This document shows, one piece after another, positions 3,586 through 50,911 of a DNA stretch of 64,000 bases; the first letter of the stretch is position 1, and each line of letters opens with the position of its first letter. The notes under the pieces are model-generated. The model was not told where the DNA came from. It worked only from the letters and a program-made list of their open reading frames with translations, and did not search any database. The DNA comes from Escherichia phage EO1: sequence record OQ223305.1; one strand, written 5' to 3'. Both the position numbers and the translations under genes were made by a program.

Positions 3586-3999
3586 ATGAGATTAGAAGAT
3601 CTTCAAGAAGAATTGAAGAAAGATGTGTTTATAGATTCGACTAAATTACAGTATGAAGCAGCTAATAATGTGATGTTATATAGTAAATGGCTCAATAAGC
3701 ATTCAAGTATTAAAAAGGAAATGCTTAGAATTGACGCGCAGAAAAAAGTTGCTCTTAAAGCTAAATTAGACTACTACTCGGGACGAGGAGACGGTGATGA
3801 ATTTAGTATGGACCGTTATGAGAAATCAGAAATGAAGACAGTTCTATCAGCTGATAAGGACGTTTTAAAAGTTGATACTTCATTACAATATTGGGGAATT
3901 TTATTAGATTTCTGTAGCGGAGCTCTTGATGCTATTAAATCACGCGGATTTGCTATTAAGCATATTCAAGACATGCGAGCATTTGAGGCTGGAAAATAA
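3586..3999 (+). CDS. uvsY: Recombination mediator UvsY
   Basis: 137 aa, T4 UvsY length, synteny after gene 25. Confidence 0.85.
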   Translation: MRLEDLQEELKKDVFIDSTKLQYEAANNVMLYSKWLNKHSSIKKEMLRIDAQKKVALKAKLDYYSGRGDGDEFSMDRYEKSEMKTVLSADKDVLKVDTSLQYWGILLDFCSGALDAIKSRGFAIKHIQDMRAFEAGK

Positions 4000-4223
4000 T
4001 GAAATATAGCATTGATGATGCTTTTAATTATGAAGAAGAATTTGAAACGGAAATTCAATTCTTAATGAAAAAGTATAATCTCAAGCGTCAGGATATTCGT
4101 ATCCTGGCCGACCATCCATGCGGTGAAGATGTACTTTATATTAAAGGAAAATTTGCCGGATATCTTGATGAATATTTTTATTCCAAAGATATGGGCATTG
4201 ATATGCATATGAGAGTTATATAA
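3999..4223 (+). CDS. Hypothetical protein (position of T4 uvsY.-1)
   Basis: 74 aa ORF coupled to uvsY stop. Confidence 0.6.
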   Translation: MKYSIDDAFNYEEEFETEIQFLMKKYNLKRQDIRILADHPCGEDVLYIKGKFAGYLDEYFYSKDMGIDMHMRVI

Positions 4224-4251
4224 ATAGATATATAATTTAGAGGAGACAATC

Positions 4252-4419
4252 ATGTCAGATAAGATTTGTGTTGTCTGTAAAACTCCAATCGATTCTGCAT
4301 TGGTTGTTGAAACAGACAAAGGTCCTGTACATCCTGGGCCTTGTTATAATTACATTAAAGAACTACCAGTTTCAGAAAGTTCGGAAGAACAATTAAATGA
4401 AACACAACTTTTGCTATAG
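4252..4419 (+). CDS. Hypothetical small Cys-containing protein (position of T4 uvsY.-2)
   Basis: 55 aa ORF below ORF-track cutoff; RBS aggagacaat before ATG; MSDKICVVCKTP... Confidence 0.45.
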   Translation: MSDKICVVCKTPIDSALVVETDKGPVHPGPCYNYIKELPVSESSEEQLNETQLLL

Positions 4420-46682: not shown

Positions 46683-46720
46683 AGCCCCGACCGAAAGGTT
46701 GGGGCTTTTTGGTATAAATA
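46683..46720 (+). terminator. Strong rho-independent terminator (46683-46711) followed directly by late promoter TATAAATA (46713-46720)
   Basis: agccccgacc-gaaa-ggttggggct plus ttttt; then gGTATAAATAtag. Confidence 0.65.
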
Positions 46721-46760: not shown

Positions 46761-47234
46761 ATGAAATCATATACTCAATTTTTAAATGAAGCGGTGTTAA
46801 ATGAAGCATCTAGCACCGAAATTCAAGCTGTCGCAAAAGCAGCCATTGCAGCGGGTAAATATTCTTATAAAGATGCTTCTGATGAATCGCGATTCCAGTT
46901 CGCACGCGACATGAAAGCGGAAGGATTTACGGGAAATGCAGTTAGTATGGCCTGGAAAAGTTTAGTTGCTACTGGCGCTGCTTTTGCAAAGGCTTCGGGT
47001 AAACCTGCTCCTAAAGCAGATCCTAAAGCTGCACAAGAAAAAAATATTGTTAAAGGAATTATCGCTAAATATGAAGCTATCCTTAAAGAGCTTTTAGTAA
47101 TCAAAACCGAAGGCCAAAAGCTAGCTCGTGCTTATAGTTTCAAAGATAACCCACATGCTCATGACCTAGAGTATGTTGAAGATCTCCAAAAAATCATCAA
47201 AGACCGCATTTGGTCTGCTAAACAAATCAAATAA
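46761..47234 (+). CDS. Internal-protein-like protein with capsid targeting sequence
   Basis: 157 aa; N-terminus MKSYTQFLNEAVLNE resembles the T4 CTS (L-x-E cleavage motif); Ala/Lys-rich. Confidence 0.55.
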   Translation: MKSYTQFLNEAVLNEASSTEIQAVAKAAIAAGKYSYKDASDESRFQFARDMKAEGFTGNAVSMAWKSLVATGAAFAKASGKPAPKADPKAAQEKNIVKGIIAKYEAILKELLVIKTEGQKLARAYSFKDNPHAHDLEYVEDLQKIIKDRIWSAKQIK

Positions 47235-47251
47235 CATTCTTAGCCCTAGCC

Positions 47252-47280
47252 GAAAGGTTGGGGCTTTTTGGTATCTAGGC
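47252..47280 (+). terminator. Rho-independent terminator, near-duplicate of the 46683 terminator
   Basis: agccctagc-cgaaa-ggttggggct plus ttttt. Confidence 0.65.
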
Positions 47281-48028: not shown

Positions 48029-48622
48029 ATGAACATGCTGAAGAAAATTGTTGAGTTTATTCGCACTAAACTTGGTTCTGCTATGGCTAAAAATCTATCT
48101 GTTGAAGAGCAGTATACTGCCGCAGCAGCAAAATTGCTTGATAAAATTAAAGATCTAAAAACTGCTTCTGTTAAATCTATTAATGAAGAAAAGCGTATTC
48201 GTGAACTTATTGTCGAAAAGAATAAGCAGGCCGAATCAAAAGAGCGTGAAATTCGCAAGCTCCTTTCGGAAGGTCAAGATGTAACAATGCATGCTAAACT
48301 TGGTTTACTATATCGTCGAACAGCTGAGCAGTTGACTACTAAAGCTGATGGTTATGCTGAAATGCGAATTGAAATCGCCAAGAAAGTAGTTGAGTTAGAT
48401 GATGCTCGCCAAGAACTTGCAGTTAAATTGGAATATATCCGTGAAACTCGCGCCGCGAATGCCCTTGGAATTAGTACTGCTGATGATGTAGTTGAAATTG
48501 CAGCACTGACTAAGGTTGATATTGAAGATACTCTTGCTCGAGTTGAAACCTTTAATGGTAATATTTCTGGGGTTGAAACTACCTCTGCCGATGTTCAGGA
48601 ATATATTAATTCTCTGAAATAA
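48029..48622 (+). CDS. Coiled-coil protein of unknown function
   Basis: 197 aa, long heptad-rich helical segments, E/K/R-rich. Confidence 0.55.
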
Positions 48623-48663: not shown

Positions 48664-49272
48664 ATGAAAATGCAAAGTGATTTCAATTCAATGTTTGAAG
48701 AGTTCCAAAGACAGGTTGATGTTCCAGACCAATTATTAAATGCTCTTAAACGTATGGCAGAAGGACGTAATTATTATTGGGGTTCTTCATATGAAACTGT
48801 TGAAAGTCTTTCTGGAAGATTTTCTAGAGGTAAAAAGTCTTTAATACGTCCTGGAATACTTATTAACAGTATTGAATCAATTCATTTATTAACATGCGAT
48901 TTTGACGTTGAATTTACTGATTTTGTTTCTCCTGAATGGACGGTCTGTTATTTAAACGACGATTATGATTATCTTGGCGTTTATAGTTTAAGTGATGCAT
49001 GGTTTAAACGTAATTTACAAAAGTCAAATTTATTCTATATTGATACTACTGTAAAATTTCAGGGCAAGAAATATTTCTTTACTCTTATAGTTGACTCTGA
49101 AACAAAATATGAAAATAAACGTATTCTTAGTAAAAAGAATATCTTAACTACTGTCGATGATCTTTTTGATAAATTCGTAGAAAATCCCAATTTTGAAAGC
49201 GATTTATTATTAGAAAAATTTGTTAAGGAATGCAGAGAATATGTCAAAACCATCACTATACCTTCCAAGTAA
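48664..49272 (+). CDS. Hypothetical protein ending in a conserved FVKECR tail
   Basis: 202 aa ORF, RBS ggagtaagtaggaATG. Confidence 0.55.
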   Translation: MKMQSDFNSMFEEFQRQVDVPDQLLNALKRMAEGRNYYWGSSYETVESLSGRFSRGKKSLIRPGILINSIESIHLLTCDFDVEFTDFVSPEWTVCYLNDDYDYLGVYSLSDAWFKRNLQKSNLFYIDTTVKFQGKKYFFTLIVDSETKYENKRILSKKNILTTVDDLFDKFVENPNFESDLLLEKFVKECREYVKTITIPSK

Positions 49273-49633
49273 ACCGTTGAAGTATGAATTAAAGCGTCAG
49301 ATAATTTCTACTGATGTGTTAATAGGTCCTGTGGTAGCTGTATCATTTGTGATTCTGCTGATTGCTGGAATGGTTATAGACGTTATGACTGATATTGGAT
49401 CTAATACAATATTTGCGTCAACGCTAATTCTTCCATTGGTAGTTCCGCTTTTATTAGTACCTATAAATTGGATAGGATATTGGTATCAAGGAAGACACTA
49501 TCGTAAACGTGTACGTGATTGGAAAGCCCAGTGCAAAAAGATTAAAAAAGAACATCAGCTTAAACTTGCTGCGTATGAATTTGATGAAATTATGAAATTT
49601 GTTAAGGAATCACGATGCAAAAGCCAAAACTAA
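49241..49633 (+). CDS. Small 2-TM membrane protein (paralog family); start uncertain (49220 or 49241)
   Basis: Two hydrophobic helices; C-terminal FVKESRCK tail; overlaps upstream gene. Confidence 0.5.
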   Translation: MSKPSLYLPSKPLKYELKRQIISTDVLIGPVVAVSFVILLIAGMVIDVMTDIGSNTIFASTLILPLVVPLLLVPINWIGYWYQGRHYRKRVRDWKAQCKKIKKEHQLKLAAYEFDEIMKFVKESRCKSQN

Positions 49634-49989
49634 ATAAAGTCAAATATTCTCTTCCTGAGTCATTTTTAATTTTTGCTGTAGCGTTGGCTACAGCTCTTGC
49701 GGGTAGTCTTTTTGGATTGTTAATTGACTGTCTTATTTTAAACATCCGTAGTAACGTCAGCGGTATAATAGATATAATAGAAGTTTGGAGTGAACTTCAT
49801 TATACTATAGCGATTTCATTATTTTCATTCTTTGGTACAATGTTATATTTTCATTATGATAATTTTAAAATAAATTGGCAAAGAAAAAAGGATTACAAAA
49901 TACAATTAAAGGAATATAATAGCTACATGTCTTATATTGAAAAAGAATCAATGGAAGAGTTTGTGAGTGATTGTAGGAAAATTAAATGA
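49615..49989 (+). CDS. Small 2-TM membrane protein (paralog family)
   Basis: 124 aa; two hydrophobic helices; C-terminal FVSDCRKIK. Confidence 0.55.
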   Translation: MQKPKLNKVKYSLPESFLIFAVALATALAGSLFGLLIDCLILNIRSNVSGIIDIIEVWSELHYTIAISLFSFFGTMLYFHYDNFKINWQRKKDYKIQLKEYNSYMSYIEKESMEEFVSDCRKIK

Positions 49990-50474
49990 TTTTAAAAACT
50001 CGCTGGTATGATTTAGATGACGGGGATGATGGCATTTCAGTTGATAGAGTTGACTGGAATGGCTGTTCCGAAGATATGAAAAATTTGCTGATTAGGGAGT
50101 TTAGAATGGGATATCAACCAGTTAAGCCATCTACTGCAACAGATGATAAATTCGTGTGTATTCATAATGGTCGCGCTAAATTAACGAACGCTGATTGGTT
50201 CACAGATAAAATTATGATTCTATGGTATATTATTAGTCTTCCTGTGACATCATTCGTATTTTACTTTTTTATAAAAAATCCAATGGACAGAATAGGAGAT
50301 TGGATTCTTTTAACCATACTTGTTAATATTTTTACTGCAGCAATATTATCTGGGATATGGTACACGTTCATTGAAATGCCATGGCGTTTACGCAGACAAC
50401 AAAAGATTTTTGATGAAAAGAAATATACCCAAAATTTAAATAGCTTTATCACTGAATGCAGGAAATTAAAATGA
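49986..50474 (+). CDS. Small 2-TM membrane protein (paralog family)
   Basis: 162 aa; two hydrophobic helices; C-terminal FITECRKLK; ATGA overlap with upstream gene. Confidence 0.55.
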   Translation: MILKTRWYDLDDGDDGISVDRVDWNGCSEDMKNLLIREFRMGYQPVKPSTATDDKFVCIHNGRAKLTNADWFTDKIMILWYIISLPVTSFVFYFFIKNPMDRIGDWILLTILVNIFTAAILSGIWYTFIEMPWRLRRQQKIFDEKKYTQNLNSFITECRKLK

Positions 50475-50911
50475 AAACATTATCAGCTGGTATTATCTTT
50501 ATGACAGAAGATAAAGATTTATTTATGGGACGAGTTACTGGTTCTCGTAAGCCTGGAATGATGGCACATCGCTGGGATATTCCAAAAGGTCGTGTAGAAA
50601 ATTCTGATTTAAGCGCATTAGATGCAGCACGAAGAGAATGCTCAGAAGAGACTGGTTTTAACAATTATAATCCAGACCTTCTAGAAGACCTAGGTGTATT
50701 TAAATATTCTAGTAATAAAGACTTACAGTTATTTTATTATACGATTCCAGTAGAGCATGAGATGTTCAGAAATTGCCGTTGTGAGTCTTATTTTGAAAAT
50801 AAAGATGGCGTTATGATTCCAGAGATGGATGCTTTTGCTCTTATTCCTCGTACTCAGTGGCAATATGTGATGGGTCCTTCACTTTACCGAATAATGAACA
50901 GCCTCTTTTAA
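50471..50911 (+). CDS. nudE: Nudix hydrolase NudE
   Basis: Nudix box GRVENSDLSALDAARRECSEETGF; ORF 50456-50911 trimmed to Met after RBS (MKTLSAG); position upstream of e. Confidence 0.8.
   Translation: MKTLSAGIIFMTEDKDLFMGRVTGSRKPGMMAHRWDIPKGRVENSDLSALDAARRECSEETGFNNYNPDLLEDLGVFKYSSNKDLQLFYYTIPVEHEMFRNCRCESYFENKDGVMIPEMDAFALIPRTQWQYVMGPSLYRIMNSLF

What the first reader, a model, noticed from the sequence alone, without database searches (positions are those of the whole stretch)
48664..50474. Tandem family of translationally coupled small membrane proteins sharing a C-terminal F-V-x-E/D-C-R tail
Four consecutive genes end in related tails (KFVKECREY, KFVKESRCK, EFVSDCRKIK, SFITECRKLK), and three encode two-TM proteins. 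Each stop overlaps the next start, and the last overlaps nudE. The repeated tail coincides with the downstream RBS, so the conservation may reflect duplication of whole gene units or a conserved coupling junction. Small early membrane proteins in T4-like phages include superinfection-exclusion and lysis-timing factors.
Basis: seen in the sequence. Interest (0 to 1): 0.45.

Follow-up and report, generated by a model that had tools for sequence, protein, structure and literature searches.

The report
Shared tail next to phage PspA
Four neighbouring T4-type phage genes of unknown function (e.5, e.4, e.3, e.2) end in the same short protein motif, which recurs across T4-like phages beside the phage's copy of the membrane-repair protein PspA and probably docks these proteins onto one shared partner.

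Summary
The window is a Tequatrovirus (98% identical to wV7/RB51). The four genes are T4 e.5 (soluble) and e.4, e.3 and e.2 (inner-membrane hairpins with both ends in the cytoplasm). All carry F-[VI]-x-[ED]-[CS]-R near the C-terminus. The ORFs overlap by 32, 19, 4 and 4 nt.

The tail is a protein-level motif, not a ribosome-binding-site by-product:
- Across 27 tails the Cys and Arg codons vary freely (TGC/TGT; AGA/AGG/CGT/CGA/CGC).
- The downstream start moves relative to the motif.
- Some tail-bearing genes have no coupled downstream gene.

Only e.4 and e.3 look like full-length paralogues. e.2 and e.5 share the tail alone.

The motif (L-E-x-[FWY]-[IV]-x-x-C-[RK]) is present in ten Straboviridae genera and one metagenomic phage. 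It always occurs on the protein encoded just downstream of e.6 (one short ORF intervenes in RB43), and in most of them on further small membrane or soluble proteins. e.6 is a PspA/Vipp1 homologue, already noted in a 2021 genome announcement and confirmed here.

Best reading, which is inferred and not shown: the tail is a cytoplasmic amphipathic docking helix that links these proteins to the phage PspA, much as PspC, LiaI or PspM partner bacterial PspA. The repeated junctions also serve as recombination points for gene loss.

The parts
48029..48622 (+). e.6: a PspA/IM30/Vipp1-like protein (ESCRT-III superfamily), 197 aa. It is the conserved upstream neighbour of the tail-bearing genes.
   Evidence: AF2 model: pLDDT 74, N-terminal helix plus a long helical hairpin. 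The top nine Foldseek PDB hits are all Vipp1. A sequence profile of 48 family members against PDB gives Vipp1/PspA as the top eight hits, E 1.4e-5 to 4.7e-4, aligned from residue 1. Two family members give sub-threshold Pfam PspA_IM30 hits in register. The homology was already noted by HHpred in PMC7862958.
48625..48645 (+). G+C-rich hairpin (GGGGCTTCGGCCCC) between e.6 and e.5
   Evidence: Read from the sequence. The scan flags it as terminator-like on the minus strand only. A terminator is annotated at the equivalent place in phage NBG1.
48664..49272 (+). e.5: a soluble 202-aa protein with the motif F186-R191 in its C-terminal helix
   Evidence: PHROG 2607. AF2 places the motif in helix 180-196, but the model is weak (pLDDT 62.6). 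F..ECREY.K is the only contiguous block conserved between the Tequatrovirus and Dhaka/Gaprivervirus versions.
49219..49236 (+). e.5 tail motif F-V-K-E-C-R (TTT GTT AAG GAA TGC AGA). The AAGGAA at 49225-49230 lies 10 nt before the e.4 ATG at 49241.
49241..49633 (+). e.4: a 130-aa two-TM hairpin protein (TM 26-42, 57-73) with a basic cytoplasmic C-tail
   Evidence: PHROG 2604. Full-length hhalign match to e.3.
49598..49615 (+). e.4 tail motif F-V-K-E-S-R. The AAGGAA at 49604-49609 is the RBS for e.3, whose ATG (49615) overlaps the Arg codon.
49615..49989 (+). e.3: a 124-aa two-TM hairpin protein (TM 17-33, 63-79)
   Evidence: PHROG 2330. F116 and C120 are invariant across four genera.
49960..49977 (+). 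e.3 tail motif F-V-S-D-C-R. The AGGAAA at 49975-49980 is the RBS for e.2 (ATG 49986, ATGA overlap).
49986..50474 (+). e.2: a 162-aa protein with an acidic N-terminal domain (1-75), a two-TM hairpin (76-92, 108-124) and a C-tail
   Evidence: PHROG 2203, 'membrane protein'. Homologues at 30-35% identity in Dhaka/Gaprivervirus-type phages keep the tail SFIEECRK*.
50445..50462 (+). e.2 tail motif F-I-T-E-C-R. The AGGAAA at 50460-50465 is the RBS for nudE (ATG 50471, ATGA overlap).
50471..50911 (+). nudE (Nudix hydrolase), translationally coupled to e.2. It carries no motif and is listed only as the downstream boundary.
   Evidence: Pfam NUDIX, E 1e-13. RB51 annotation.

Best explanation
e.5, e.4, e.3 and e.2 are accessory proteins of a phage-encoded Psp-like membrane-maintenance module headed by e.6, a PspA/Vipp1 homologue.

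The three membrane proteins are inner-membrane hairpins with both ends in the cytoplasm; e.5 is cytoplasmic. Each ends in a short amphipathic helix with the core L-E-x-[FWY]-[IV]-x-x-C-[RK]. Its hydrophobic face (L, F, I/V, C) serves as a common docking element.

The most likely partner is the e.6 polymer. The membrane proteins would then anchor or recruit e.6 at the inner membrane, and e.5 would be a soluble regulator or adaptor. This parallels the way PspC, LiaI or PspM partner bacterial PspA.

Because T4-type phages shut off host transcription, the host cannot mount its own sigma-54-dependent Psp response. A phage copy with its own fast-evolving sensors or anchors would keep the membrane energised during infection.

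What is shown: the motif is real, is under protein-level selection, and is linked to e.6 by conserved neighbourhood; e.6 is PspA-like; the tails are predicted to be cytoplasmic.

What is inferred: the tail is a binding helix, its partner is e.6, and the physiological role is membrane maintenance.

Side effect: because each tail also holds the next gene's RBS and start, the repeated junctions allow in-frame gain or loss of whole gene units by recombination.
For: (1) Protein-level selection. In 27 non-redundant tails from seven genera, F is TTT 18 / TTC 7, C is TGC 11 / TGT 9, and R is AGA 9, AGG 5, CGT 5, CGA 3, CGC 3.

(2) The tail is the only part conserved once the protein bodies have diverged. 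Tequatrovirus e.5 against Dhaka/Gaprivervirus e.5-like gives hhalign E 1.3e-5 with the tail and 0.33 without.

(3) The motif sits on unrelated scaffolds: two-TM proteins, e.5-like proteins, and small soluble proteins of 92-131 aa.

(4) The gene just downstream of e.6 carries the motif in all lineages examined, although the flanking genes differ (tRNA/e.8 context versus nrdD/nrdG/nrdH context). These are Tequatro-, Mosig-, Dhaka-, Gapriver-, Kanagawa-, Jiaoda-, Karam-, Pseudoteven- (one short ORF intervenes in RB43), Biquarta- and Bragavirus, plus one metagenomic phage.

(5) e.6 is a PspA/Vipp1 homologue (PMC7862958).

(6) Bacterial PspA systems recurrently pair with small lineage-specific membrane proteins, including the two-TM PspC and PspM (PMC11237479). 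The C-terminal part of E. coli PspC (residues 69-119) binds PspA (PMC3068692).

(7) The topology prediction puts all tails in the cytoplasm, and the motif is amphipathic in most copies.
Against:
- Gene order is broadly conserved in T4-like phages, so neighbourhood is weaker evidence here than in bacteria.
- A hairpin or terminator separates e.6 from e.5.
- None of the four proteins matches the PspB, PspC or LiaI families in Pfam or NCBIfam.
- The Cys is replaced by V, I, S, T or M in some membrane members, so its role may be only hydrophobic packing.
- The amphipathic moment is not significant in several copies.
Confidence: 0.42

Rival explanations
1. The tail is a docking or oligomerisation helix, but not for e.6. 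Either the tails bundle with each other, so that e.5, e.4, e.3 and e.2 form one hetero-oligomeric membrane complex, or they all bind another conserved phage or host protein.
For: All the evidence for a protein-level motif on several scaffolds applies equally here. Several tail-bearing proteins are co-expressed from coupled ORFs, which favours stoichiometric complexes. Enterobacterial phages have 3-6 tail-bearing genes, whereas the Aeromonas phage and RB43 have only the e.5-like one.
Against: The e.5-like protein keeps the tail in phages where no other nearby protein carries it (the Aeromonas phage 31 and RB43 regions examined). The tail therefore does not need other tails. No candidate partner other than e.6 co-varies in the loci examined.
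Confidence: 0.27
2. The tail has no function of its own. It is a relic of tandem duplication, kept because these codons also encode the Shine-Dalgarno sequence and start of the next gene (a conserved translational-coupling junction).
For: Each tail in the window contains the next gene's RBS (AAGGAA or AGGAAA) and overlaps or abuts its start. e.5 and e.4 share 16 identical nucleotides, AAATTTGTTAAGGAAT. K-E and R-K are the commonest residues at the RBS-encoding positions.
Against: - F, I/V and C are not RBS-encoding.
- Arg uses both codon families, including CGT and CGC, which do not resemble an RBS.
- The RBS falls on different motif positions in different genes (K-E in e.4, R-K in e.3 and e.2).
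- The motif is kept where the downstream start is 20 nt or more away or absent (TH22 e.5, Klebsiella 5N 102-aa protein, Enterobacter 131-aa protein, RB43).
- The protein bodies have diverged beyond recognition while the tail stays.
Confidence: 0.08
3. The conserved Cys-Arg is a chemical site rather than a docking surface. It could be a metal- or redox-sensing thiol shared between subunits, or a target of phage ADP-ribosyltransferases acting on Arg, possibly linked to the neighbouring Nudix hydrolase NudE.
For: Cys is invariant in all e.5-like proteins examined and Arg/Lys is nearly invariant. nudE is coupled to e.2. That T4 ADP-ribosyltransferases modify arginines is from my own knowledge.
Against: Cys is replaced by V, I, M, S or T in several membrane members, and Arg by Lys. 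This fits packing and charge better than chemistry. There is a single Cys per tail and no CxxC or His partners. NudE is not adjacent in several genera.
Confidence: 0.1
4. The repeated junctions exist mainly as recombination cassettes that shuffle small genes in a hyperplastic region. This would be analogous to the promoter-stem-loop cassettes described for T4-type phages (own knowledge: Arbiol et al. 2010).
For: Dhakavirus C6 lacks e.4. Its e.5/e.3 junction is an exact hybrid of the two junctions seen in Gaprivervirus TH22, with the crossover inside the shared AARGRGGTTCnnAATG. The number of tail-bearing genes varies from 1 to 6 between genera.
Against: Recombination needs nucleotide identity, yet the tails differ widely at synonymous sites within a genome. 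Only some junction pairs share more than about 13 nt. Selection is plainly on the peptide. This is better seen as a by-product.
Confidence: 0.05

Closest known systems
Bacterial Psp/Lia systems: PspA with small membrane partners (PspB/PspC in E. coli, LiaI/LiaF in Bacillus, PspM in mycobacteria)
   Same: A PspA-family protein (e.6) is encoded next to several small integral membrane proteins. Two-TM partners are known (PspC, PspM; PMC11237479). PspC binds PspA through its C-terminal region (PMC3068692). Lineage-specific partners are the rule.
   Different: No sequence homology of e.5-e.2 to PspB, PspC, LiaI or PspM. The system is phage-encoded. There are several partners per genome, unified only by a 9-residue C-terminal motif. 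One partner (e.5-like) is soluble and is the universally conserved one. No PspF-like regulator is present. Binding is untested.
ESCRT-III recruitment by short terminal helices (MIM motifs binding MIT domains; own knowledge)
   Same: A short amphipathic helix at a protein terminus is used as a portable recruitment element in an ESCRT-III-type system.
   Different: In eukaryotes the motif sits on the ESCRT-III subunit itself and binds Vps4 and other MIT proteins. Here it sits on the putative partners. The sequences are not similar. This is an analogy only.
T4 e.2-e.8 cluster of 'conserved hypothetical, predicted membrane' ORFs
   Same: These are those very genes (annotations of RB51 and T4 GT7).
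   Different: The annotations give no function. I found no published note of the shared tail in the searches I could run, but those searches by gene name are weak.
T4 small membrane proteins of superinfection exclusion and lysis timing (Imm, Sp, RI, RIII, holin T)
   Same: Small early phage proteins of the inner membrane.
   Different: PHROGs placed the four proteins only in their own families, of unknown function or labelled 'membrane protein', with no significant hit to other families. The tail motif occurs nowhere else in the 64-kb window.

Membership tests
PspA/IM30/Vipp1 (ESCRT-III superfamily), for the neighbour e.6 | Sequence-profile similarity to PspA/Vipp1 over helices alpha0-alpha3, in register from the N-terminus | tested here: met
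   An e.6-family profile (48 sequences) against PDB sequences gives Vipp1/PspA as the top eight hits (E 1.4e-5 to 4.7e-4, positions 1-146 against 1-147). E. coli PspA 4WHE scores E 0.18. Pfam PspA_IM30 hits are below the curated cut-off but in register for two family members. The window protein alone gives no Pfam hit. HHpred 99.9% is reported in PMC7862958.
PspA/IM30/Vipp1 (ESCRT-III superfamily), for the neighbour e.6 | Fold: N-terminal amphipathic helix, long alpha1/alpha2-3 hairpin, then shorter helices | tested here: met
PspA/IM30/Vipp1 (ESCRT-III superfamily), for the neighbour e.6 | Self-assembly into rings or rods and membrane binding or remodelling | not testable with these tools
   Needs biochemistry or cryo-EM.
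Psp partner membrane proteins (PspB, PspC, LiaI-LiaF-TM, PspM) | Homology to one of the partner domains | tested here: not met
   No Pfam or NCBIfam match for e.5, e.4, e.3 or e.2 at E up to 1, other than chance-level hits.
Psp partner membrane proteins (PspB, PspC, LiaI-LiaF-TM, PspM) | Small integral membrane protein encoded beside a pspA homologue, conserved as a neighbourhood | tested here: met
   e.6 is followed by tail-bearing genes in ten genera and one metagenomic contig, in two different flanking contexts.
Psp partner membrane proteins (PspB, PspC, LiaI-LiaF-TM, PspM) | Physical binding to the PspA-family protein | not testable with these tools
   No multimer prediction was available. 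Only a weak, post hoc resemblance exists to M-E-R-Y-V in the PspA-binding C-terminal part of E. coli PspC.
   e.4 against e.3: Smith-Waterman z 5.5; hhalign 88% probability, E 2.7e-6, full length, but E 5e-3 without the tail. e.2 and e.5 against the others: nothing beyond the tail. The profiles were shallow (4-5 sequences).
Translational-coupling junction as the cause of the conservation | Overlapping stop/start with a Shine-Dalgarno sequence inside the upstream ORF | tested here: met
   Overlaps of 32, 19, 4 and 4 nt; AAGGAA or AGGAAA 5 nt upstream of three of the four starts.
Translational-coupling junction as the cause of the conservation | Conservation at nucleotide rather than amino-acid level, tied to the position of the downstream start | tested here: not met
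   Synonymous codons are used freely at F, C and R. The start position ranges from overlapping the Arg codon to more than 20 nt away or absent.
T4 superinfection-exclusion / lysis-timing membrane proteins (Imm, Sp, RI, RIII) | Sequence homology to those families | tested here: not met
   The PHROGs scan returns only PHROGs 2607, 2604, 2330 and 2203 and fragments of them, of unknown function or labelled 'membrane protein'. No direct pairwise comparison with Imm, Sp or RI was run.

The most novel reading that the evidence does not exclude
The L-E-x-F-I-x-x-C-R tail is a portable 'PspA-interaction peptide'. T4-like phages would then carry an ESCRT-III-type membrane-repair polymer (e.6). A fast-evolving, recombining set of membrane sensors and soluble adaptors would aim it at sites of damage, for example to keep the membrane energised during lysis inhibition or to blunt host defence effectors that kill by depolarising the membrane.
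Probability: 0.25. Interest if true: 0.75.

Novelty: new variant of a known kind. Interest (0 to 1): 0.52.

Why it matters
- It gives a concrete, cheaply testable hypothesis for five T4 genes (e.2 to e.6) that have had no function for decades.
- If the tail binds e.6, it would define a short recruitment motif for a bacterial-type ESCRT-III/PspA protein, and a viral Psp-like system with its own membrane partners. How PspA-family proteins are targeted to membranes is still an open question.
- It would also suggest that large lytic phages actively maintain host membrane integrity after shutting off the host's own stress response. That could bear on membrane-targeting abortive-infection defences.
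- Independently of function, the motif is a practical marker for annotating a set of otherwise unrecognisable small genes in Straboviridae genomes.

Tried and rejected
- Pfam, NCBIfam and PHROGs scans of the four proteins gave no informative family.
- PDB sequence searches with e.6 alone, a six-sequence e.6 profile and an e.5 profile found nothing useful. Only the broad e.6 profile worked.
- AF2 of e.5 was weak (pLDDT 62.6). Its Foldseek hits to small alarmone synthetases have TM about 0.2 and E about 1e-2, so I reject them as evidence.
- The afdb50 fold library was unavailable.
- An exhaustive HMMER search with the e.6 profile found only phage-type proteins of about 200 aa, with no bridge to bacterial PspA.
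- The word-indexed homologue search with e.3 reached only Tequatrovirus.
- Literature searches by gene name (e.2 to e.6) returned nothing relevant. The T4 genome review is not held.
- The promoter scan was at background level.
- A tail-only profile search of the large protein libraries was considered and dropped. A motif of about 9 residues cannot reach significance against 10^9 sequences.
- Cleavage by the T4 prohead protease at L/I-x-E was considered and dropped, because the Glu is not conserved outside four genera.
- The 'sulfurtransferase' and 'host specificity protein' labels in some GenBank records have no support.
- Several loci fetched in batches did not reach the Python sandbox, so they were read with the ORF listing, get_sequence and DNA alignment instead.
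Full report
**What is there.** The window region is 98% identical to Escherichia phages wV7 and RB51, which are Tequatroviruses. By the RB51 and T4 annotations the four genes are e.5, e.4, e.3 and e.2. They are followed by nudE, e (lysozyme) and denV, and preceded by e.6. The ORFs are:

| Gene | Coordinates | Length |
|---|---|---|
| e.5 | 48664-49272 | 202 aa |
| e.4 | 49241-49633 | 130 aa |
| e.3 | 49615-49989 | 124 aa |
| e.2 | 49986-50474 | 162 aa |

They overlap by 32, 19, 4 and 4 nt.

The pattern F[VI].[ED][CS]R occurs four times in the six-frame translation of the whole 64 kb, only at these four C-termini. Shuffles give 0.41 on average. A relaxed pattern finds no further member in the window.

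Hydropathy and charge distribution give two membrane helices in e.4, e.3 and e.2, with both termini in the cytoplasm. e.5 has none.

**Are the four proteins paralogues?** Only partly.
- e.4 and e.3 align over their full length (hhalign 88% probability, E 2.7e-6; E 5e-3 once the tail is cut off; Smith-Waterman z 5.5). They also share the N-terminal M-x-K-P-x-L.
- e.3 against e.2, and e.5 against the others, align only over the tail.

The four are better described as different proteins carrying one C-terminal motif.

**Protein motif or nucleotide element?** I collected 37 tails (27 non-redundant) from seven genera and aligned them on the Phe codon.
- Phe is TTT 18 / TTC 7.
- Cys is TGC 11 / TGT 9.
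- Arg is AGA 9, AGG 5, CGT 5, CGA 3, CGC 3, so both Arg codon families are used.
- The consensus extends to L(-3)-E(-2)-x-[FW]-[IV]-x-[E]-C-R-[KRGE].

The next gene's ribosome-binding site lies on K-E of the motif in e.4 but on R-K in e.3 and e.2. The downstream start ranges from overlapping the Arg codon to more than 20 nt away.

Some tail-bearing genes have no coupled downstream gene. These are a 102-aa protein of Klebsiella phage 5N and a 131-aa protein of Enterobacter phage myPSH1140. In RB43 the motif lies 25 residues from the end.

The conservation is therefore on the peptide. The ribosome-binding site uses codons that happen to be purine-rich.

**The tail outlasts the proteins that carry it.** e.5 of Tequatrovirus/Mosigvirus and the e.5-like protein of Dhakavirus/Gaprivervirus sit at the same place and have similar lengths. 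F..ECREY.K is their only contiguous conserved block. hhalign gives E 1.3e-5 with the tail and 0.33 without it. In e.3, F116 and C120 are among only twelve invariant columns across four genera.

**Wider distribution.** I used the well-conserved e.6 as an anchor (1,106 phage records) and read the genes downstream of it in the lineages below.

| Genus (phage) | Tail of the e.5-like protein just downstream of e.6 | Other tail-bearing proteins |
|---|---|---|
| Mosigvirus (NBG1) | QFIMECREY | four more members |
| Dhakavirus (C6) | RFIAECREY | one membrane protein (FIKECKS*) |
| Gaprivervirus (TH22); also the unclassified phages 212 and vB_YenM_P8 | RFI[TA]ECREY | e.4-, e.3- and e.2-like proteins (FIKEVR, FIKECKS*, FIEECRK*) |
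| Kanagawavirus (Kosakonia phage 305) | DFVDQCR | membrane protein (LFIKNVRRK*), 92-aa soluble protein (SFIQMCRGK) |
| Jiaodavirus (Klebsiella phage 5N) | EFIKYCRE | three membrane proteins, 102-aa soluble protein |
| Karamvirus (Enterobacter phage myPSH1140) | DFINYCRG | four membrane proteins, 131-aa soluble protein |
| Pseudotevenvirus (RB43; one short ORF intervenes) | LEKFIHSCKK | none seen nearby |
| Biquartavirus (Aeromonas phage 31) | ELFVDYCRR | none seen nearby |
| Bragavirus (Proteus phage phiP4-3) | EEYIMQCRKK | membrane proteins with YI..[ST]KR |
| Metagenomic T4-like contig | AEFVNFCKE | three further members |

With Tequatrovirus that makes ten genera and one metagenomic phage. 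In every case the protein encoded just downstream of e.6 carries the motif. The surrounding genes differ: tRNA/e.8 context in T4-type phages, and nrdD/nrdG/nrdH context in RB43 and the Aeromonas phage.

**What e.6 is.**
- An AF2 model built on 48 homologues (pLDDT 74) shows an N-terminal helix, a long helical hairpin and short C-terminal helices.
- The top nine Foldseek PDB hits are all Vipp1, and archaeal CdvB2 also appears.
- A sequence profile of 48 diverse e.6-family members against PDB sequences gives Vipp1/PspA as its top eight hits (E 1.4e-5 to 4.7e-4), aligned from residue 1 to about 146.
- Two family members give in-register, sub-threshold Pfam PspA_IM30 hits.
- The homology had already been noted for a T4-like Klebsiella phage (HHpred 99.9% to E. 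coli PspA; PMC7862958).
- A 2024 survey of Psp systems and a 2025 review of bacterial ESCRT-III do not discuss viral copies.

**Most likely mechanism.** PspA-family proteins recurrently work with small, lineage-specific inner-membrane partners: PspB and PspC, LiaI and LiaF, and PspM. PspC and PspM have two membrane helices (PMC11237479). The C-terminal part of E. coli PspC binds PspA (PMC3068692).

The phage genes fit this theme. They are hairpin membrane proteins whose cytoplasmic C-terminus ends in a short helix with L, F, I/V and C on one face. They are encoded beside a PspA homologue, together with one soluble protein that bears the same helix.

I therefore propose that the tail is a common docking helix, most likely for e.6. 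It would link the phage PspA to the membrane and to e.5. Since the phage shuts off host transcription (own knowledge), the host's own Psp response cannot be induced. A phage-borne module would keep the membrane intact and energised.

Only the motif, its selection, its neighbourhood, the predicted topology and the nature of e.6 are shown here. The binding, the partner and the physiology are inferred. A weak, post hoc lead also exists. M-E-R-Y-V in the PspA-binding part of E. coli PspC is the only match to [LIVM]E.[FYW][IV] in PspA to PspD.

**Rivals.**
- The tails may bind each other or another partner. This is not excluded, but the e.5-like tail persists where no other tail-bearing protein is nearby.
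- A pure duplication or RBS relic is contradicted by the codon data and by uncoupled members.
- A chemical role for Cys-Arg is weakened by C-to-V/I/S/T/M and R-to-K replacements in the membrane members.
- A role as recombination cassettes is real, but looks secondary.

**Junction recombination.** Dhakavirus C6 lacks e.4. Its e.5/e.3 junction (…ECREYAKEVQNGTA*) matches the TH22 e.5/e.4 junction closely (four substitutions) up to the shared AARGRGGTTCnnAATG. From there on it matches the TH22 e.4/e.3 junction. One gene unit was thus removed exactly from start codon to start codon, leaving expression signals intact. This explains how the number of tail-bearing genes can vary from one to six between genera.

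**Known or new?** The genes are the long-known hypothetical T4 ORFs e.2 to e.5. That e.6 is PspA-like is published. I found no description of the shared C-terminal motif, of its spread over unrelated scaffolds, or of its constant association with e.6, although my literature searches by gene name were weak. I rate it a new variant of a known kind: a Psp-type system with phage-specific partners. Interest is moderate, because it is testable with simple experiments and would matter for PspA/ESCRT-III targeting and phage-host membrane biology. The mechanism is still an inference.

Noticed in passing
window about 50271-50276; L004 (T4 GT7) 3860-4347: The window has an A6 run and an intact 162-aa e.2. 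T4 GT7 has A5 at the same place, so its annotated e.2 stops at 102 aa. The second membrane helix and the FITECRKLK tail are left as an unannotated 63-aa ORF (L004 4156-4347) that still overlaps nudE by ATGA. Another T4 record also matches in two pieces. This could be a lineage frameshift, or slippage on the A-run.
   Followed up: partly
L002 3857-4651; L003 3851-5094; L005 2366-3427; L010 6710-8315; L012 6272-6825; L015 5230-5755: A second family of 2-5 small soluble proteins lies just after the tail-bearing membrane genes. They all end in W-[VIL]-S-S-S-x-x-C* or W-x-x-S-S-C* (for example GAWVSSSALC*, GGWVSSSSEC*, KIWYPSSC*). It is present in Mosig-, Dhaka-, Gapriver-, Kanagawa- and Karamvirus. 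I did not look for it in the window. Function unknown.
   Followed up: no
window 48029-48622: e.6 is a PspA/Vipp1 (ESCRT-III superfamily) homologue conserved in more than 1,000 Straboviridae records. It has been noted once in a genome announcement, but the Psp and ESCRT-III review and survey I read do not discuss it.
   Followed up: yes
L017 (E. coli K-12 pspC), residues 101-105: The PspA-binding C-terminal part of E. coli PspC contains M-E-R-Y-V. This is the only match to the first half of the phage motif ([LIVM]E.[FYW][IV]) in PspA to PspD. It is weak and post hoc.
   Followed up: partly
GenBank annotations seen: Homologues of e.3 and e.4 are labelled 'sulfurtransferase' and e.6 is labelled 'host specificity protein' in several records. 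Pfam and NCBIfam give no support, so these look like propagated mis-annotations.
   Followed up: partly
window 49986-50210 (e.2 residues 1-75); L005 6582-7169; L008 3551-4042: The N-terminal cytoplasmic domain of e.2 carries a conserved acidic block, W-x-[DN]-[LI]-D-D-G-[DN]-[DE]-G-I...V-D-W-x-x-C, across three genera. It matches no family.
   Followed up: no
window 46683-46706 and 47242-47265: Two near-identical strong terminator-like hairpins (AGCCCnnnCCGAAAGGTTGGGGCT followed by a T-run) flank the 157-aa ORF at 46761-47234. RB51 annotates the homologous ORF as 'flanked by 34 bp imperfect direct repeat', which suggests a mobile cassette.
   Followed up: no
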